This document shows positions 1,358 to 28,734 of a stretch of 30,187 bases of DNA, piece by piece. The translations under genes were made by a program, and so were the position numbers. The stretch lies in the IMG/VR virus record IMGVR_UViG_3300046786_000471, positions 1-30,187 of that record. One strand, written 5' to 3'. The number at the start of each line of letters is the position of its first letter. Position 1 is the stretch's first letter. Below the pieces are notes generated by a model, which was given only the letters and a program-made list of their open reading frames with translations, did no database searches and was not told the origin of the DNA. Source of the stretch: a virus. Lineage: Duplodnaviria; Caudoviricetes.

Positions 1358-1382
1358 GGTTTAAACATTTAAATATTAATAA

Positions 1383-1598
1383 CTAGTTTTCATATGCAAT
1401 AATCGCATCTCTTACAAACTGAAGATTGTTTGGTATCTCATATGTACTAAACATTTCTTTCGGAGACTTACATGTATTCTCACTATTATTTTGAGTTTCA
1501 AACACATATCTAAGGTCACCGTCTTTGTTCTTCTTTACTTTACCAAACAAAACTATGGAATAAAGTCCTTCCAACGTCAACTTATCATCTACTAATTT
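1383..1598 (-). CDS. AAA_24/Sak4-like ATPase, exon 2 (71 aa, KLVDDKLTLEGLYSIVLFGK...KSPKEMF)
   Basis: In frame with exon 1 after removing 1599-2562, giving ...KAKTIG|KLVDDKLTLEG... Confidence 0.9.
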   Translation of the reverse strand, partial: KLVDDKLTLEGLYSIVLFGKVKKNKDGDLRYVFETQNNSENTCKSPKEMFSTYEIPNNLQFVRDAIIAYEN

Positions 1599-1640
1599 CT
1601 TTACTACCTTCCAATTTCTCAGAGGAATAGACTATATCTT

Positions 1641-2306
1641 CTATATTTTGTATTTCCATATCAGACCGCATGCAGATTTGGTTTTTCCTCTACATACATT
1701 TGCAATCTGACCTCTTCCACAATTATGCGCATTAGCAGCATGTTGTAAAGAAGGATATTCTTTAACAATTTCACCATTAGAATTAACTAAATAAACAGCT
1801 TTGTACCTTTTAGCTTTAGTTTCTTCTGATTGTTTCTTTCCTAGATTACACAATTTTATTTTTTCTTTAGTCTTTTCACTTAGTTTTTTCCCCAAGTGAG
1901 CTTTACTTATTTTATTTCTTGTTTCTTTACTTACCAATCTTCCTTTTAAAGAATCTGATGTTTTGATTCGAGATTCTAAAGACATAATTTGATTTTGATT
2001 ACCATCTCCACCATCTGTCATATTTGTAAGATTAAATCCCCAAGATTTAAGTTGTGCTATCCAATATTGTTCACTTTGTTTCCAACAATTGTGATTTAAA
2101 ACTATTTCTAGTTCTTCAATAATAGGTAGCATTCCTTTTAAAATAAGTCCTTTTATCCAAGCTTTTTTATAACTATTTGTACCATTGTATAAACTATCAC
2201 GAATGTGTTGATACATTCTAGTCGTTAAAGAATTTTTGGTTTTTCCTACATATCTAATTTCATTAGTTATAGGATCCGATAGAGTATATATTGTTATTTG
2301 TTTCAT
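1641..2306 (-). CDS. GIY-YIG homing endonuclease with NUMOD3-like repeats and a C-terminal NUMOD1-like HTH
   Basis: Motifs IYTL...RYVGKT...R..QH, EQYWI and NMTDGGDG, then repeats SKETRNKIS/SEKTKEKIK/SEETKAKR, then YPSLQHAA...IANVCRG...GLIWKY. ATG 2306 is preferred over TTG 2339. Confidence 0.92.
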   Translation of the reverse strand: MKQITIYTLSDPITNEIRYVGKTKNSLTTRMYQHIRDSLYNGTNSYKKAWIKGLILKGMLPIIEELEIVLNHNCWKQSEQYWIAQLKSWGFNLTNMTDGGDGNQNQIMSLESRIKTSDSLKGRLVSKETRNKISKAHLGKKLSEKTKEKIKLCNLGKKQSEETKAKRYKAVYLVNSNGEIVKEYPSLQHAANAHNCGRGQIANVCRGKTKSACGLIWKYKI

Positions 2307-2310
2307 AATA

Positions 2311-2325
2311 TAATATACAAAACTA
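2311..2325 (-). promoter_or_regulatory. Putative internal promoter for the intron endonuclease
   Basis: TAGTTTTG (TAnnTTTG, Bacteroidota -7 consensus) overlaps GTATATTA just upstream of ATG 2306. Confidence 0.4.
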
Positions 2326-2562
2326 TCGGTTAAATACAAAATCTAGTTCACCATTTCCCCTAAAGTTTTATTAACTTTAGAGTACTCCCCATCACAGGGA
2401 TAGTCGTTGAACTTTTTTCCTCAGCACCACCTGTAGGAAACTTAGCTGCTGATTACCCAATCTTCATTTCTTTTACTATACTACAATCATTACTGTTGTA
2501 GGGAGTGTATGAAGCTCTAAGGGTTTTCCAGTCAGTTAGATGAATACAGGCAAATTTTCTTT

Positions 2563-3030
2563 ACCAATTGTTTTAGCTTTCACCTTTCTCCTACCCTCTA
2601 AATCAGTCGCTTCTTCAGCGTGTGTAAGATAGAAAACCATTAAATCATCTCTCATCAGAATAGGAAGCTTTGCAATGTGAGCAAGAGCAGCACCCATCTG
2701 TGTAAACTTATCAAAACCCTTCTCAGTAGCGCGATTGAAGTATTCAAATGCACTCATGTATTGAAAATCATCTATAACAATGTTCTTAATCTCTTTGCGT
2801 TCATTGTTAATAATCTTTAGCACAGCTTCTATATCCTGTGGTTTGGATACACTAGCAAGATTACCCTTCTTAGTAGAAAGATCAAATGTTGGATAGAGCT
2901 TTTTCCAACCTTTAAACGGAAGTGGTTTGTTTGCTACGTTAATAATAAATGTTTCTTGTGGATTCAAACTTTCTATGGATGTGGATTTACCACAACCTGA
3001 TTCTGCAATAATTAATACACTTTGCGCCAT
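2563..3030 (-). CDS. AAA_24/Sak4-like ATPase, exon 1 (156 codons; spliced product 227 aa)
   Basis: Walker A AESGCGKS, Walker B IVIDD and LTH motif. The exon ends at the intron 5' splice site ATT GGT. Confidence 0.9.
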
Positions 3031-3031
3031 C

Positions 3032-3580
3032 TTAACTTTTTTTAATTAGTTCGTTTAACCATTTTTTGTTGCTCTGAGGTGTTTTCAAATGAATACACGC
3101 CCAGTCTCTAGCGGTGAGTTCTGATTCATGACAATCTTCTAGTTCTTTCTCTACTCTCTTTTCAGGAAGTAAGAAATCTTTTGTCATTACAGGTTTTACC
3201 ACCTCAATAAGTTCCGATAAAGGTACAAAATACGCTAATGTACTTGGGTCAGAAGGATTAGAATAATGTTCTTCATATTCTTCCTTGTAATGAGGATTGT
3301 TTGGAAGTTTGTAAAGTTTGTGTTCTGGACTAATCGGTATGTTATTACCGTCTGTTATTTCAATAAAAATGTCTTCGTTCCTCTTAAGTTCTGATGGAAA
3401 CATCCTAACCACTTTGTAATCTTTACCTTCTGGTTTCCAAGCAAATTTGATAGTAAAATAAGGAGAAAGATAACCATAATGTTTAAATGTAGATTCATGA
3501 GCTGGTTTTAACAGTGAAATAGCGCTGTTTCTTTCCATTTTTTCTTGTGTTTTTTGACCAATTTTTGCTGTACTGTACAT
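3032..3580 (-). CDS. Hypothetical replication-block protein
   Basis: 182-aa ORF packed tightly between the helicase and the ATPase. Confidence 0.75.
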   Translation of the reverse strand: MYSTAKIGQKTQEKMERNSAISLLKPAHESTFKHYGYLSPYFTIKFAWKPEGKDYKVVRMFPSELKRNEDIFIEITDGNNIPISPEHKLYKLPNNPHYKEEYEEHYSNPSDPSTLAYFVPLSELIEVVKPVMTKDFLLPEKRVEKELEDCHESELTARDWACIHLKTPQSNKKWLNELIKKS

Positions 3581-11059: not shown

Positions 11060-11785
11060 TTACCACATTATAGGTGACCACTCACGCTTTTCTATCTCTT
11101 TGTTTATTTCAACAAACACATGACCACCTTCCCACTCTTTGCTTTTTGTATAAGCAGCGTGTGCTGGATGTGATGTACATAACACTGTTTTTACAGGTAG
11201 GTTAGGTAACAAACCTTGTGCTTGTTTACCTAACAAAACATACACTGCTTCAGGTTTTTTATGTGCAAGAACATCCATCAAATAAGTCATAAAATCTTTC
11301 CATAAGTCTACATGTGTACCTGGTTTACCTATTTGAACAGTAAGAGCACTGTTTAGAAGTAAAACACCTTGTTTTGACCATCTGGTTAAATCAGGATCAT
11401 GATAAACTGTCTTACCCTCATGAACGTGTATATCTAATGCTTTGAATACATATTCAAGACTTGGTTGAGGTTTACCTGTTAAACTACAAGAAAAAGCAAG
11501 ACCGTCTGCTACACCTGGAGTAAAATAAGGATCTTGTCCTACTATTACCAATTTAACATCTTTAAAAGGACATTTTTCAAACGCTCTAAAAACGTATTTT
11601 AAAGAAGGAGTAAAATGTTTCTCTTCCTCAGATAACGTCTTTAGTTTAGATAGTAGTTGCATAAAGTCATCACTCATGATGAATAAACGCAATACTTCTC
11701 CCCATCCTGACGGTTTAAGTTTTTCATAAAGCTTTTCTCTTGTCTGTAAAAGAAATTCGGAGTATTCCGTTGCTGTTACATTCAT
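11060..11785 (-). CDS. ung: Uracil-DNA glycosylase, family 1
   Basis: VIVGQDPY, GLAFS, PSL, QGVLLLN and SHP motifs. Confidence 0.95.
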   Translation of the reverse strand: MNVTATEYSEFLLQTREKLYEKLKPSGWGEVLRLFIMSDDFMQLLSKLKTLSEEEKHFTPSLKYVFRAFEKCPFKDVKLVIVGQDPYFTPGVADGLAFSCSLTGKPQPSLEYVFKALDIHVHEGKTVYHDPDLTRWSKQGVLLLNSALTVQIGKPGTHVDLWKDFMTYLMDVLAHKKPEAVYVLLGKQAQGLLPNLPVKTVLCTSHPAHAAYTKSKEWEGGHVFVEINKEIEKREWSPIMW

Positions 11786-16128: not shown

Positions 16129-16980
16129 TTAAAATATATACCGTATACCACTCGGATCAAAGAATTCTGAATACAAGTTGGTAAAGTCTTGTATCATTTG
16201 TTTTTTAAGTTGCCATTGATATCTGATATTATCAGGAGCATATTGAGAGTCTTTTGCTTCTTGAATATCAGGTTTCCATAATAATTCTCTTACAGGTTCT
16301 GAGTTACGCTCGTGTTGAAACTTATTGTGGGTGAGAAATATACACTCACATTTAGTATCTACACCTGCATCTTTGATCTCTTGGAAGAGCTTTCTGTACT
16401 CATCTAACCAACCATCTTCATAGATAATAGGAGAGAAATTGATATGCACCTCCATATATTTCTTCAATTCTGGTATAGATTGTATGCGTTCAGATATAAG
16501 ATCAGTATCTGGTTCTAAAACATTAGAATACACTTGAGGCATTAAACTCACTCTGATTCTATGTCTGTCACAATCAAGATCATAACTCTGTGCATCAAAC
16601 CTAGTAGGGTACTTAGTAGCAAACGTTGTCTTTAAGTTTTCAGACTCATTAAACCACGTAAATACCTCACCCCAATTGTAATGTTTCTGCATCAGTGGTA
16701 CATCTGTACTGCAACCAATATCTATGGTGTAATACTTGGGATCCACCTGGTTAGGTGTTTTGTTAAAAGGTTTATCATCAACCCAATTTTGTATAGACGC
16801 TAATATATCTTTAGTGTTCTCATTGACATACACTTTGTCATGGTTATATCTACCTACATAACAATAAGAAGACATACAACCTCCTAAACACCCATACACA
16901 AAGTTTGGACTAATAGCATCAGAACTACGTCCATTATCTCGTGTAATGAGTGTTTTTGTACGTTGTTTAATGATTTTCAT
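16129..16980 (-). CDS. Spore photoproduct lyase (SplB)-like radical SAM protein
   Basis: GCLGGCMSSYCY cluster motif plus IGCSTD, FATKY, RIRVSLMPQ and HINFSPII. Confidence 0.8.
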   Translation of the reverse strand: MKIIKQRTKTLITRDNGRSSDAISPNFVYGCLGGCMSSYCYVGRYNHDKVYVNENTKDILASIQNWVDDKPFNKTPNQVDPKYYTIDIGCSTDVPLMQKHYNWGEVFTWFNESENLKTTFATKYPTRFDAQSYDLDCDRHRIRVSLMPQVYSNVLEPDTDLISERIQSIPELKKYMEVHINFSPIIYEDGWLDEYRKLFQEIKDAGVDTKCECIFLTHNKFQHERNSEPVRELLWKPDIQEAKDSQYAPDNIRYQWQLKKQMIQDFTNLYSEFFDPSGIRYIF

Positions 16981-20067: not shown

Positions 20068-20085
20068 TGTTAATTTTTGTTTGTT

Positions 20086-20123
20086 AAAAAATAAGAGGAT
20101 GCATATAATAATACACATCCTCT
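20086..20123 (-). terminator. Terminator of the ncRNA cluster
   Basis: AGAGGATG...CATCCTCT stem followed by TATTTTTT, 7 nt after the tmRNA CCA. Confidence 0.7.
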
Positions 20124-20130
20124 CGATTAA

Positions 20131-20569
20131 TGGTGGAGAAGGGGGGATTCAAACCCCCGTCTCCGAAAGTACACAATAGTACAACATCTCACATGCTTAG
20201 TACTAACTACTACTTGTTTACTACCAGTAAAGAGTAGCACAAGGTTCATCTGCACCGTAGTTTGGGGATGTCTGGTTAAAGACAACCTACCACCATCTGG
20301 TTTTCGGAACTACCAGGAAAACCTTGACAGCACTCAGAAGGGAGTGTCCACCTATTTGTCAGTTTCTGTTGCCAGGTATGACTACCCCGTTCCTTATGCA
20401 GCTACTGCTACACGAGAGAAGAGAGAAGCAAGAATAGCTTCACCTTCAGAAACACGCTGAGACTTAGTCTTTGCGTTTATTGATGAATCATTGATTAAAG
20501 AGGAATAGACCCTTACCTCTGCATGTATACTACCATATATCATCCGGATCAAATGTCAATCACTTCCCC
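20131..20569 (-). ncRNA. ssrA: tmRNA (439 nt); tag reading frame 20394-20474
   Basis: Acceptor GGGGAAG/CUUCUCC-ACCA with G3.U70 (Ala identity) and T arm GGGGG-UUUGAAU-CCCCC. AUAAAC precedes the resume codon GCA, and the tag reads AKTKSQRVSEGEAILASLFSRVAVAA*. Confidence 0.93.
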
Positions 20570-20578
20570 AGATTTCAG

Positions 20579-20686
20579 TGGTCAGAACGGGAGTCGAACC
20601 CGTAAGTAGTTTTCGAATTAGGCGTTCATCTCTTTCACATCAAGGTTTGGAGACGGCTTACTTTAGCTACCATATGCTATCTGACC
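20579..20686 (-). ncRNA. tRNA-like RNA 1 (108 nt, no canonical anticodon arm)
   Basis: Acceptor GGTCAGA/TCTGACC, D-like TAGC-ATATGGTA-GCTA and T arm ACGGG-TTCGACT-CCCGT. The insert is closed by AAGTA/TACTT. Confidence 0.75.
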
Positions 20687-20824
20687 ATGTCCACAGCTTC
20701 ACTTTATACGTCTATAAAGGAGAGGCTGTGTAATCCACCATAACTTATACCTTGGGTTATTCGTTTACGTGGAAACAAGACCACAGAAGTGTGCATCAAT
20801 ATGAGAGGCAACGTGGTACTGTTG

Positions 20825-20936
20825 TAGTCAGGACAGGATTCGAACCTGTATTTGTAATAACGACCCTCAAGCATCACTCCTAGTTGTGAGTTATTACCGT
20901 TGCTCCCTCGTGCGTCTACCATTTCGCCACCTGACT
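20825..20936 (-). ncRNA. tRNA-like RNA 2 (112 nt)
   Basis: Acceptor AGTCAGG/CCTGACT, D arm GCGAAATGGTAGACGC and T arm ACAGG-TTCGAAT-CCTGT. The ~60-nt insert contains a GTAATAAC/GTTATTAC stem. Confidence 0.8.
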
Positions 20937-21031
20937 ATGTTTTAACAGCGTCACTACTATATGCTGTTACCTACCATAACCTTCCTTATCGTAAGTAAGT
21001 AGGAGATTTAAAAATCTCTATGGTATGTTTT

Positions 21032-21128
21032 GAGGATGAGAACTCCTCTGTGTTGTAGAGAACTTATACTCTAATTTTTAGTACCCCTCATCTCTTAACG
21101 GTTTGCGTACCGTATCGGGAACAACACA
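21032..21128 (-). ncRNA. Putative pseudoknotted RNA module
   Basis: A TGTGTTGT/ACAACACA stem encloses an ACGGT/ACCGT hairpin. Internal GATGAGGG can pair with downstream TTCTCATC. Confidence 0.5.
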
Positions 21129-21131
21129 TAA

Positions 21132-21262
21132 TAAGAGAAGTTGTGGGTTTTACAGGGTTTCTGATTAGCATGATTTCACCTATACCTACTATAAACCCTT
21201 ATTCAGTATAGTCACCCTTATCAGTGGTGTGCTAATTAACAGCTTCAACCACTTCTCTTAAT
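21132..21262 (-). ncRNA. Unidentified pseudoknot RNA motif, copy A
   Basis: Closing stem TAAGAGAAGT/ACTTCTCTTA and pseudoknot AGGGTTT/AAACCCT; homologous to 21583-21685. Confidence 0.7.
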
Positions 21263-21310
21263 ATTCTCAGCCTGCAACTACTATCTTGCACTACATCGTA
21301 CTGAGAATAG

Positions 21311-21448
21311 CAGTCAGGGGAGGATTTGAACCTCCAAGGGCTGTCATTATAGTGACCACACGCAGTGTGCTTTTTTACCCATAGTGCTATAACCATCTAT
21401 TGCGTCTACCGCGACCGGGAGACACCCCGATCCTTCCGCCACCTGACT
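21311..21448 (-). ncRNA. tRNA-like RNA 3 (138 nt)
   Basis: Acceptor AGTCAGG/CCTGACT, a D loop with an inserted hairpin GATCGGG/CCCGGTC, T arm GGAGG-TTCAAAT-CCTCC and a branched insert. Confidence 0.78.
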
Positions 21449-21506
21449 GTTCAACTATTGTTTAAGGAAGTTGACAACCTTCTGTAATTGAGATATTACA
21501 GAACCG

Positions 21507-21578
21507 AAATCAGGACAGGATTTAAACCTGTATCTCTCACCTACTATGATGAGGCGTTATCAATTACGCTACCTGATT
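21507..21578 (-). ncRNA. tRNA-like RNA 4 (72 nt, cloverleaf with a non-canonical anticodon loop)
   Basis: Acceptor AATCAGG/CCTGATT, D arm GCGT-AATTGATA-ACGC, middle arm CTCAT-CATAGTAG-GTGAG and T arm ACAGG-TTTAAAT-CCTGT. Confidence 0.75.
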
Positions 21579-21582
21579 ATAA

Positions 21583-21685
21583 AAGAGAAGCTGTGGGTCT
21601 TTCAAGTCTACTGGTTTGTGGATACTACTATTAGACTTTGTTCATATGATAACACCACCTAACAGCTTCAACCGCTTCTCTTAAT
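21583..21685 (-). ncRNA. Unidentified pseudoknot RNA motif, copy B
   Basis: Closing stem AAGAGAAGC/GCTTCTCTT and pseudoknot AAGTCTA/TAGACTT; 25/26 nt identical to copy A at the 5' end. Confidence 0.7.
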
Positions 21686-21870
21686 AAGTTTAGGAAAGTA
21701 GAAGATGGGTGAGTGGACATCTACTTTTACAACTAGCGTTACTATCCAATCAGGTCAGACATTTCTGTCTGCAACCCAGTCCTAGTTAACCTATAATCAA
21801 AGACCTGTGTTGTTCACGGTGTTACCCGTCCAGGTATTACGCACTGCTACTTTGATTAATAACTTATTAT

Positions 21871-21878
21871 CAAAATTA
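21871..21878 (-). promoter_or_regulatory. Putative -7 promoter box driving the ncRNA cluster
   Basis: TAATTTTG (TAnnTTTG), 12 nt upstream of the first stem-closed module (21794-21858). Confidence 0.5.
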
Positions 21879-21882
21879 CAAA

Positions 21883-21990
21883 TTATCCTTGAAAATCATC
21901 TTTGTTTTTATCTGCTCTATAAAACAAAATAATAACAGTGATTGTCATGACAGCACACCATACGTATCCAAATGTAGATAAGTTATCCAT
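21883..21990 (-). CDS. Small membrane peptide (35 aa, MDNLSTFGYVWCAVMTITVIILFYRADKNKDDFQG)
   Basis: Manual translation; a single hydrophobic helix followed by a charged tail. Confidence 0.55.
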   Translation of the reverse strand: MDNLSTFGYVWCAVMTITVIILFYRADKNKDDFQG

Positions 21991-22010
21991 ATTACAGATT
22001 TAAAATTGTT

Positions 22011-22048
22011 AAAAAAATCCCGTATGATGTAGAAACATCTATCGGGAT
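22011..22048 (-). terminator. Terminator-like hairpin with a UGU-UUCU-ACA apex
   Basis: ATCCCGATAGATGT-TTCT-ACATCATACGGGAT-TTTTTT. Confidence 0.65.
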
Positions 22049-22063
22049 CAGTCATTGCTTATG

Positions 22064-26920: not shown

Positions 26921-27142
26921 TTTTTATTATTGTATGGTGAAAAAACATTTGTTGACACAAGAAAAACCCCTACTGCAAATCAGTATTGACTATACTGATT
27001 TTAGGGATCTTCCTTGTGCTAGAATACCTTTTTTTCTCATCAAGTAGTATCCACGAGAAGCTAACCTGCTCGATTGCTTTTATTCAACTTGGTTGTTCGT
27101 GAGCAATGCAACTCCAACAACAGACACTCTACTATTGCATTT

Positions 27143-27999: not shown

Positions 28000-28734
28000 T
28001 TAATTAGTTGATGCGACAGCGCAATCGATAGCGTCATTCTTGTCAACAAACACTGCTATGAACCTACCTTGATGTAGGAATTCATGTTTACCAATGTTCT
28101 TGATTGGGTAGACACTACTATCAATCGACAACAATGTCCATTTACCGTCGTTTGGGTAAATCAAAAATTGTTTCATATTGTAACGTTTCCAGTGGATAGG
28201 AAAAGCGTCACAAATTTTGATGTTATCGTTGATATTTACACCACGCTGCCATATCTCTAGAGATTCTTTACTAACCTCAATCACAGCTTTACACGATCTC
28301 ACGTAATTCCTGCACATTTCGAGTGCAAACTCGAAACCTCCAGGAATATTATTCATTCTTTTTATGAATGAATTCACCTGGAATCCGTTGTACTCACCGT
28401 ACCCATCACAATCAATGTTAGATACGATGAGCATCTCATCAATCATCTCATCATAAAGCTCTTCGCTTATGATGTTTGTTCTAAACATGTGTTTTAATAT
28501 CAACACACATGAAGCATGTAATGCTTTGTCGTGGTGGTGGTCAAACACGTTTATGTACGTGGAGTGTTTTCCTCCTACATCAATAATCCATATATTAGGA
28601 TTATCCATGTCTTCTGCTGTAATCGTTCTTGTTCTTACAACAGGACACTCTTGTACAAACTCATGTACAAGAGCAATAGCAAACAATTCGTCTGCGTGGA
28701 ACACCCCGTTATGGGTGATGATTTTTTCAATCAT
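28000..28734 (-). CDS. MYG1/UPF0160-family (DHH-like) exonuclease/phosphoesterase
   Basis: THNGVFHADE, VRTR, IDVGG, FDHH, IDCDG and FLHQGRFIA motifs. Confidence 0.88.
   Translation of the reverse strand: MIEKIITHNGVFHADELFAIALVHEFVQECPVVRTRTITAEDMDNPNIWIIDVGGKHSTYINVFDHHHDKALHASCVLILKHMFRTNIISEELYDEMIDEMLIVSNIDCDGYGEYNGFQVNSFIKRMNNIPGGFEFALEMCRNYVRSCKAVIEVSKESLEIWQRGVNINDNIKICDAFPIHWKRYNMKQFLIYPNDGKWTLLSIDSSVYPIKNIGKHEFLHQGRFIAVFVDKNDAIDCAVASTN

What the first reader, a model, noticed from the sequence alone, without database searches (positions are those of the whole stretch)
20086..21878. A ~1.75-kb polycistronic ncRNA operon: structured modules punctuated by tRNA mimics and ending in tmRNA
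Seen: no credible ORF, a TAnnTTTG box at 21871-21878 and a terminator at 20086-20123. In between, stem-closed modules abut almost without spacers: 21794-21858, 21731-21787 (GAAA tetraloop), 21695-21727, motif B, tRNA-like 4, two hairpins, tRNA-like 3, hairpin 21262-21309, motif A, pseudoknot 21032-21128, two hairpins, tRNA-like 2, three hairpins, tRNA-like 1 and tmRNA. Inference: one precursor cut by RNase P and 3'-processing nucleases at the tRNA-like elbows (tRNA punctuation), releasing a set of small RNAs that act as decoys or sponges against host defence or regulation. This is my best candidate for an undescribed system. Overlap with known large phage RNAs such as GOLLD or ROOL needs to be excluded.
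Basis: partly seen in the sequence, partly recalled or inferred. Interest (0 to 1): 0.88.

Follow-up and report, generated by a model that had tools for sequence, protein, structure and literature searches.

The report
Phage array of swappable-cargo small RNAs
An uncultured phage carries a gene-free row of about a dozen small RNA units ending in a tmRNA; most are fixed frames (tRNA shells without an anticodon and three other predicted folds) holding exchangeable inserts that recur reshuffled in other phages, and they are likely cut from one transcript and likely serve as decoys against host defences.

Summary
The feature is real. Minus-strand 20086-21878 has no credible gene. It holds a tmRNA, four tRNA shells without a canonical anticodon arm, and stem-closed units spaced 0-9 nt apart. 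It is not GOLLD and shows no match to ROOL. It is an accreted array, not one RNA: units recur in other phages in other orders, and two relatives carry tmRNA alone at this locus. Added result: the non-tRNA units are also fixed frames with variable cargo. F3 (21692-21792) has 88 distinct copies and strong covariation; PK has 76; motif A/B has 9. Cargo and D-loop inserts reassort between shells. The shells keep the U-1 and C74 of genuine phage tRNA genes, so tRNA-type maturation is likely. Punctuation alone cannot free most units, and about half of PK and three-quarters of F3 copies have no tRNA directly downstream. Public RNA runs gave contigs only, so transcription and processing are unproven. 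Decoy function is inferred. Closest known: T5 'tRNA-like stable RNAs' and the phi14:2 intergenic RNA, which contains a PK-frame match. This scan has already reported the tRNA shells and PK on other DNA.

The parts
21871..21878 (-). Bacteroidota-type promoter box TAnnTTTG (consensus recalled); a second box lies at 21969-21976
   Evidence: same box ahead of tmRNA in L028/L029; motif not enriched in the window
21794..21858 (-). M1: stem-closed unit whose inner hairpin differs in its one homologue
   Evidence: one other contig (L230 = L477)
21692..21792 (-).
   Evidence: about 230 IMG/VR stretches estimated; 88 distinct copies of 73-159 nt; 99.4% of cells paired, 8 of 18 pairs changed on both sides, 0/500 shuffles
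21583..21682 (-). Motif B (A/B frame, short cargo)
   Evidence: alignment A1, 9 sequences: 98.4% paired, 5 of 21 pairs changed on both sides
21507..21578 (-). tRNA shell T4: 6-nt loop in place of an anticodon loop; U-1, U73, C74
   Evidence: Rfam tRNA 44.3 bits; ARAGORN tRNA-???; no homologue of the arm found
21449..21502 (-). Two small hairpins
   Evidence: folding only; no homologue found
21311..21448 (-). tRNA shell T3: Leu-type frame, hairpin inserted in the D loop, cargo in place of anticodon and variable arms; C-1, G73, C74
   Evidence: 92.7% identical in L022; insert and cargo reassort independently in L294, L367, L099, L265, L163, L329
21262..21309 (-). Bulged hairpin
   Evidence: folding z -3.0 at chosen boundaries; no homologue found
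21133..21259 (-). Motif A (A/B frame, long cargo)
   Evidence: 92% identical in L022, 84% in L196/L205/L209; covariation
21032..21127 (-). PK frame: closing stem, cargo and 3' hairpin, with a predicted kissing-loop pseudoknot in the family; the window copy has an altered 5' hairpin shared with L096
   Evidence: about 140 stretches estimated; 76 distinct copies of 71-162 nt; 97.8% paired but only 2 pairs changed on both sides; model match in phi14:2, E 1.2e-6
20942..21027 (-). M8: multi-hairpin unit
   Evidence: 98.9% in L022/L032, 84% in L305, part in L202
20825..20936 (-). tRNA shell T2: canonical family frame (Leu-type D arm, A73, C74) with about 60-nt cargo
   Evidence: Rfam 41.4 bits; frame family about 1600 stretches estimated; cargo had no homologue
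20692..20820 (-). M9/10: three-hairpin unit
   Evidence: 87% over 77 nt in L060/L061; partial hits in L459
20579..20686 (-). tRNA shell T1; its cargo occurs in L060 inside the canonical frame
   Evidence: Rfam 29.0 bits; cargo 90% over 60 nt
20131..20569 (-). tmRNA with G3-U70, encoded CCA and a 26-codon tag frame (20474-20394) ending VAVAA
   Evidence: tmRNA at the same locus in L028/L029 with a different tag
20086..20124 (-). Intrinsic terminator

Best explanation
This is an accreted array of independent small-RNA cassettes, each a conserved frame (an anticodon-less tRNA shell or one of three other predicted folds) around an exchangeable cargo, likely transcribed as one precursor with tmRNA, likely matured by host tRNA-processing and trimming enzymes, and likely acting as stable decoys for host factors that read tRNA or structured RNA. 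Shown: the units, their families, covariation in F3 and A/B, reassortment of cargo between shells, and reshuffled order between phages. Inferred: (1) host RNA polymerase starts near 21864 and stops at 20090; (2) RNase P cuts at the 5' end of each shell and of tmRNA, and 3' trimming to C74 with CA addition completes the shells, as for the CCA-less tRNA genes of these phages; (3) the other units are freed by cuts in the short A/U-rich spacers and trimmed back to their closing stems; (4) recombination at the near-identical frame sequences swaps cargo and cassettes; (5) the mature RNAs compete with host tRNA for nucleases or binding proteins that read the elbow, acceptor end or variable arm, and cargo diversity samples such targets. 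Steps 1-4 I put at about 0.7, step 5 at about 0.45.
For: Shell family: 137 loci fetched, about 1600 stretches estimated. Of 164 distinct shells with both acceptor strands: U-1 138, A14-A15 128, U48 137, A73 145, C74 160, canonical-looking anticodon arm 6, cargo 18-159 nt in 126 clusters; CCA encoded in 5. Ordinary tRNA genes in the same loci: C74 in 312 of 313, CCA in 19. All four window shells have C74; three of four, and tmRNA, have U-1. F3 and PK 3' halves are joined to their 5' halves at variable distance (88 and 76 distinct copies; 3 and 2 matches lacked the 5' half). Covariation. Reassortment: T3's D-loop hairpin occurs with three cargos, T3's cargo occurs without it and in another tRNA frame, and one cargo also stands free as a stem-closed unit in L042. 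Order differs among L031, L032, L060, L090, L192, L202. L028/L029 have the same upstream gene context followed by tmRNA with none of these units between. The exact shell end is in only 24 stretches of 185,579 species genomes, all metagenome-assembled, many Bacteroidota, so it is not a common host tRNA. Candidate targets in print: Ba1Cas12a3, from a Bacteroidetes bacterium, grips T-arm, acceptor stem and CCA tail, and tolerates loss of tRNA loops (PMC12851939, passages); Septu cuts the tRNA-Tyr variable arm and phage tRNA may be decoy or supplement (PMC13096335, passages).
Against: No direct evidence of function. Cargo folds only modestly better than shuffles (mean z -0.60, 143 shells; -0.75, 74 PK copies), so much of it may drift. 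Only 2 shared 12-mers link shell and PK cargo, and none link F3 cargo to either: swapping between different frame families is not shown. Only two of four window shells keep A73. PK covariation is thin. The patterns used fixed one half of each frame, which inflates its invariance. Four units have no homologue: T2 cargo, T4 arm, 21262-21309, 21449-21502. Fixed-window folding does not exceed coding flanks.
Confidence: 0.45

Rival explanations
1. The shells are mainly processing signals (tRNA punctuation) that free and stabilise neighbouring RNAs and tmRNA; their cargo is incidental.
For: 30 of 84 PK copies are followed within 15 nt by a shell, and 11 more by a likely tRNA. U-1 and C74 are kept.
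Against: 71 of 94 F3 and 43 of 84 PK copies lack a downstream tRNA end. tmRNA is itself an RNase P substrate (established knowledge) and stands without shells in L028/L029. Several cargos are conserved between phages with compensatory changes (T3 cargo; L045/L086 against L089, seen).
Confidence: 0.2
2. The frames are recombination handles or selfish RNA cassettes that pile up downstream of a strong promoter with little benefit to the phage.
For: Near-invariant frame sequence across many phages, up to 10 copies per 6 kb; shuffled order; weakly structured cargo.
Against: Compensatory changes on both sides of helices and kept tRNA maturation bases imply selection on the RNA. No mobility enzyme was found beside the array.
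Confidence: 0.12
3. The RNAs act on translation itself: leucylated shells, tmRNA with a phage-specific tag and the other units tune ribosome rescue, aminoacyl-tRNA supply or N-end-rule tagging during infection.
For: A73 and A15-U48, recalled as LeuRS identity elements, are kept in most shells; bacterial LeuRS does not read the anticodon (recalled); the array is co-located with an intact tmRNA.
Against: T3 and T4 have G73 and U73. In 20 shell-rich loci Rfam at gathering score found no complete tmRNA, although blastn found tmRNA parts in L031 and L080. No SmpB-like gene among the window proteins scanned, but the contig is about 25% complete.
Confidence: 0.15
4. The stretch is one large structured RNA of the GOLLD/ROOL kind.
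For: Large phage ncRNA beside tRNA-like elements; spacers are very short.
Against: No GOLLD or ROOL hit at E<=10 (the ROOL control rang nowhere, so that search alone is weak). Each unit closes on itself and travels alone.
Confidence: 0.03
5. The cargos are guides or spacers captured from genes, used in an RNA-guided process.
For: Constant frame plus variable insert resembles repeat-spacer arrays.
Against: 12 of 211 cargos hit 542 kb of unmasked phage flanks at E<=0.01; the strong hits were other copies of RNA units and the rest were short. Window cargos have no match elsewhere in the contig. Cargo length ranges 18-159 nt. Host genomes were not searched.
Confidence: 0.05

Closest known systems
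Phage T5 stable RNAs (AY543070: RNA1, RNA2, RNA3 'tRNA-like'; RNAI, III, IV, 2H, X 'stable RNA with unknown functions')
   Same: Abutting stem-closed small RNAs in a phage tRNA region. RNA1 has a Leu-type D arm with a large insert instead of an anticodon arm; RNA2 shares 17 of 17 T-arm bases with T2.
   Different: No sequence homology beyond the T arm. The PK and F3 models find nothing in T5 or T4. The window array has no ordinary tRNA and ends in tmRNA. The frame-plus-cargo organisation is not in the T5 annotation.
Phage T4 species 1 and 2 RNAs (rnaC, rnaD; AF158101)
   Same: Small stable RNAs of unknown role encoded in the tRNA cluster.
   Different: Only a 14.6-bit, E 0.9 PK-model match on rnaD; not evidence of kinship.
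Cellulophaga phage phi14:2 intergenic long non-coding RNAs (bioRxiv 10.1101/2020.03.07.982082; passages read)
   Same: A PK-frame match lies at KC821624 3132-3205 (44.2 bits, E 1.2e-6), with the 5' hairpin stem changed on both sides. The paper reports two early intergenic regions transcribed rightwards, above most genes, persisting late, function unknown.
   Different: The 3' hairpin differs, and F3 is absent. That this match lies in the paper's g004-g005 junction is likely but not verified: numbering differs and the preprint's supplements are closed.
Polycistrons of irregular and allo-tRNAs (Mukai et al., PMC5389517; passages read)
   Same: Polycistronic irregular tRNA-like RNAs, some charged but not used in translation.
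   Different: Those are 8/4, 9/3 or E-loop tRNAs with anticodons, from Acidobacteria, near toxin-antitoxin genes. These are 7/5 shells without an anticodon arm, in phages.
Bacterial Y RNAs (YrlA; PMC4201824; passages read)
   Same: tRNA-mimic module cut by RNase P and CCA-tailed.
   Different: Defined by the GNCGAAN0-1G motif and a Ro60 gene within 4 kb; neither was found here. The YrlA model scores 15.6 bits against 69.
Engineered tRNA scaffold for RNA expression (PMC3753655; search listing only, design recalled)
   Same: Foreign RNA placed in the anticodon arm of a tRNA is matured and protected by host enzymes.
   Different: Man-made; here it would be the natural counterpart.

Membership tests
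tmRNA (RF00023) | Covariance-model score above gathering | tested here: met
   61.5 against 47 bits; ARAGORN did not call it
tmRNA (RF00023) | G3-U70 acceptor, CCA end, tag frame ending in small hydrophobic residues | tested here: met
   sequence; 26-codon frame ending VAVAA
tmRNA (RF00023) | Trans-translation activity | not testable with these tools
   needs a tagging assay
Canonical tRNA | 5-bp anticodon stem with 7-nt loop at the canonical place | tested here: not met
   T4 has a 6-nt loop; T1-T3 carry about 50-90 nt inserts; 6 of 164 family shells pass
T5-type tRNA-like stable RNAs | Acceptor, D and T arms kept; anticodon arm replaced by an insert | tested here: met
T5-type tRNA-like stable RNAs | Accumulates as a discrete stable RNA in infected cells | tested here: inconclusive
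   only assembled contigs of public runs were available; no ends or strand
GOLLD (RF02032) | Match to the covariance model | tested here: not met
   no match at E<=10
ROOL (RF03087) | Match to the covariance model | tested here: inconclusive
   no match at E<=10, but the control rang nowhere
GOLLD/ROOL-type single large RNA | Domains inherited together in fixed order | tested here: not met
   units recur singly and in other orders
Y RNA (YrlA) | GNCGAAN0-1G motif and model score | tested here: not met
   motif A/B has invariant GGUUGAAG; 15.6 bits against 69, on a different unit
Y RNA (YrlA) | Ro60/TROVE gene within 4 kb on the same strand | tested here: not met
   no TROVE hit among 27 proteins scanned in Pfam, flanking ones included
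tRNA punctuation | Every released RNA is bounded by a tRNA | tested here: not met
   blocks of 3-4 units lie between shells in the window; 43 of 84 PK and 71 of 94 F3 copies have no downstream tRNA end
tRNA punctuation | Cleavage by RNase P and a 3' nuclease at the tRNA ends | not testable with these tools
   U-1 and C74 signatures are consistent with it

The most novel reading that the evidence does not exclude
Bacteroidota phages run a natural combinatorial RNA display library: at least four conserved frames, among them a natural tRNA scaffold, present recombining cargo as stable decoys, and the anticodon-less shells are the missing phage answer to defences that read the tRNA elbow and CCA tail, such as Cas12a3.
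Probability: 0.25. Interest if true: 0.88.

Novelty: new variant of a known kind. Interest (0 to 1): 0.62.

Why it matters
Stable RNAs of unknown function have long been annotated in the tRNA regions of T4 and T5, and phi14:2 makes abundant unexplained intergenic RNA. These families put that open question on a footing of hundreds of sequences, with defined frames, covarying stems and natural cargo swaps, so single cassettes can be tested. The Cas12a3 paper says tail cleavage would need 'yet unknown means of resistance'; anticodon-less shells from Bacteroidota-type phages are a direct candidate. F3, PK and A/B have no Rfam family and could be curated as new ones.

Tried and rejected
Blastn of the array against INPHARED phages: no match. 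First motif scan: 25 of 27 loci were chance matches. Metagenome scan for motif A/B: 6 of 40 loci were real (L180, L192, L196, L202, L205, L209); the rest were mostly GC-rich sequence without the closing stem and were dropped. Pair counts used mis-registered structure strings and were redone. Public RNA runs: 4 of 6 listed were laid, all as contigs. Near-exact pieces cover tmRNA (X1, X3, X4), F3 to motif B (X1, probably DNA), and motif A (depth 12) and T3 (3.9) in X2, but X2 also covers six flanking pieces outside the array at depth 2-3. The runs were picked with this stretch, so this shows neither transcription nor processing. One X2 piece runs across T3's predicted 5' cut, which fits precursor or DNA. 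F3 against cultured phages: only 28-nt chance hits. Ribozymes: no self-cleaving family in the window or in 20 array-rich loci at gathering score. Sigma-70 box at 21605-21576 set aside as a coincidence inside conserved units. Length modulo 3 does not point to coding for shells or F3; PK is skewed, 41 of 76 in one class. Literature: searches (listings only unless named) found no description of these frames. In PMC10690425 (10,006 viral candidate RNAs; passages read), 4 of 6 held supplements were searched for frame words with no hit. Two zip files and three large files, which likely hold the alignments, could not be read, so overlap with its candidates is open. PMC8375218: a passage search found nothing relevant.
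Full report
Setting. The window is a 30-kb linear virus record, about 25% complete. It encodes DnaB-like and SNF2-type helicases, a Sak4-like protein, a baseplate hub, an AAA ATPase and a DUF7192 protein. The best helicase hits among catalogued phages are uncultured human-faecal 'cr' phage records at about 33% identity; that these are crAss-like is recalled. A Bacteroidota host is inferred from TAnnTTTG boxes (consensus recalled) and from the Chitinophagia/Bacteroidota bins that carry the same RNA shell.

Observation. The gap 20068-22063 is by far the largest non-coding stretch. Rfam finds tmRNA (61.5 bits) and three tRNA-model hits. A fourth shell is evident from shared acceptor and T-arm repeats. 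Units abut with 0-9 nt spacers, and a 14-pair terminator closes the row. Two cautions: the promoter box is not enriched in the window (32 against 41 expected), and fixed 120-nt windows in the array fold no better than coding flanks. Structure is therefore supported by comparison, not by energy.

The tRNA shells. A 21-base T-arm/acceptor pattern hit about 1600 IMG/VR stretches (estimate); 137 loci were fetched, some with up to 10 copies. Of 173 distinct elements, 164 had a recognisable 5' acceptor strand. They keep a Leu-type D arm and replace the anticodon and variable arms with 18-159 nt of cargo in 126 clusters; 6 of 164 have a canonical-looking anticodon arm. Positions not fixed by the pattern are kept: U-1 138, A14-A15 128, U48 137, A73 145, C74 160; CCA is encoded in 5. 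Ordinary tRNA genes in the same loci have C74 in 312 of 313 and CCA in 19 (ARAGORN's scoring may favour such ends). The shells thus carry the same 3' signature as working tRNA genes, which argues that they enter the same maturation path. In 185,579 species genomes the exact shell end occurs in 24 stretches, all metagenome-assembled, so it is not a common host tRNA.

The other units are frames with cargo too. On 48 of the 88, chosen for diversity, 99.4% of cells pair, 8 of 18 pairs change on both sides, and no shuffle or slid register comes near. PK (21032-21127) has 76 distinct copies of 71-162 nt, 2 matches lacking the 5' half. On 50 of the 76, four helices including a 6-pair kissing helix are 97.8% paired, but only 2 pairs change on both sides, and the 3' half was fixed by the search. 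The window's PK copy has an altered 5' hairpin, so its own pseudoknot register is uncertain. Motifs A and B are one frame with two variable regions: 9 sequences, 98.4% paired, 5 of 21 pairs changed on both sides. M1, M8 and M9/10 have one to three homologues; the T2 cargo, T4 arm and three small hairpins have none. None of these units has an Rfam family.

An array, not one RNA. L022/L032 carries T3, an unrelated unit, motif A and M8, without PK; L016/L031 carries F3, the A/B motif and two shells; L060 carries T1's cargo in the canonical shell and M9/10 elsewhere. Two of three relatives found with the upstream DUF7192 gene have tmRNA at this locus with none of these units between; their tag differs and the tmRNAs align well only at the 3' end. 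Within shells, parts reassort: T3's D-loop hairpin appears with three cargos, T3's cargo appears without it (L294) and in a different tRNA frame (L265, L163, L329), and one cargo stands free in L042. Cargo sharing between different frame families is not shown (2 shared 12-mers between shells and PK, none with F3). GOLLD gives no match and ROOL none, the latter with a weak control.

Punctuation. Cuts at four shells and tmRNA would leave blocks such as M1-F3-motif B and hairpin-motif A-PK-M8. In loci fetched without regard to tRNAs, 30 of 84 PK copies are followed by a shell and 11 by a likely tRNA, but 43 by neither; for F3 the figures are 4, 19 and 71 of 94 (crude pattern test). Punctuation is thus a partial route. 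Spacer cleavage and trimming to each unit's closing stem is the inferred remainder.

Expression. Four public runs were laid, all as contigs. They hold near-exact pieces of tmRNA, F3-motif B, motif A and T3, but cannot show strand, ends or level, and one run also covers flanks outside the array. Indirect support comes from phi14:2: the PK model matches 3132-3205 (E 1.2e-6), and the preprint (passages read) reports abundant, persistent intergenic RNA in this early region. The gene numbering was not reconciled.

Mechanism. I commit to a decoy library: one precursor, host maturation, stable small RNAs that compete for host tRNA- or RNA-reading factors. The shells keep exactly the half that Ba1Cas12a3 grips (T arm, acceptor stem, CCA tail), and that enzyme comes from a Bacteroidetes bacterium (PMC12851939, passages). 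Septu reads the variable arm (PMC13096335, passages). This step is inference: no host defence was linked to this phage, cargo is only modestly structured (mean z -0.6), and two window shells lack A73. Rivals are punctuation only, a role in translation, selfish accretion, guides, and a single large RNA.

Known and new. T5 has annotated tRNA-like and other stable RNAs of unknown function, abutting in its tRNA region; RNA1 has the same shell design and RNA2 the same T arm. I owe that lead, and the phi14:2 lead, to earlier notes of this scan, which reported the shells in 8 notes shown of 11 matching findings and PK-like units in others. What this window adds is F3 with strong covariation, the general frame-plus-cargo rule across four folds, direct reassortment of T3's parts, and accretion ahead of a tmRNA. 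Nine literature searches found no account of these frames; unread supplements of PMC10690425 may contain some. Verdict: real, a new variant of a known but unexplained kind; interest 0.62.

Noticed in passing
window 1358-2535, minus strand: The Sak4-like gene (2536-3030) is followed by non-coding flanks around a homing endonuclease (1641-2339) that carry words I recall from phage group I introns; Rfam at gathering score did not call it. Likely an intron with an endonuclease inside the gene.
   Followed up: no
L031 475-743: A tmRNA 3' part is followed directly by a group I intron (97.3 bits), apparently inside the T loop.
   Followed up: no
L028 10022-10493; L029 10120-10635: These phage tmRNAs have tag frames ending ELELA and ELEVA rather than an AA-type end, while the window's ends VAVAA: the tag differs at the same locus.
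   Followed up: partly
ordinary tRNA genes in L031-L451: 312 of 313 encode C74 but only 19 encode CCA, suggesting a fixed rule of 3' maturation in these phages or hosts.
   Followed up: partly
window 21880-22050, minus strand: A terminator-like hairpin ends the upstream genes; a second TAnnTTTG box at 21969-21976 precedes about 90 nt with short inverted repeats, a possible extra small RNA or operator.
   Followed up: no
L043/L044, L060/L061: Very dense clusters with 8-10 shells interleaved with ordinary tRNAs within 6-8 kb.
   Followed up: partly
window 26921-27142, minus strand: 222-nt intergenic stretch opening with an inverted repeat; not examined.
   Followed up: no
window 16129-16980, 28000-28734, 11060-11785: Spore-photoproduct-lyase-like, MYG1 exonuclease-like and uracil-DNA-glycosylase-family genes.
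   Followed up: no
L028 13996-14080: A PK-frame copy with a compensatory change in its closing stem, 3.5 kb downstream of the tmRNA in a relative.
   Followed up: no
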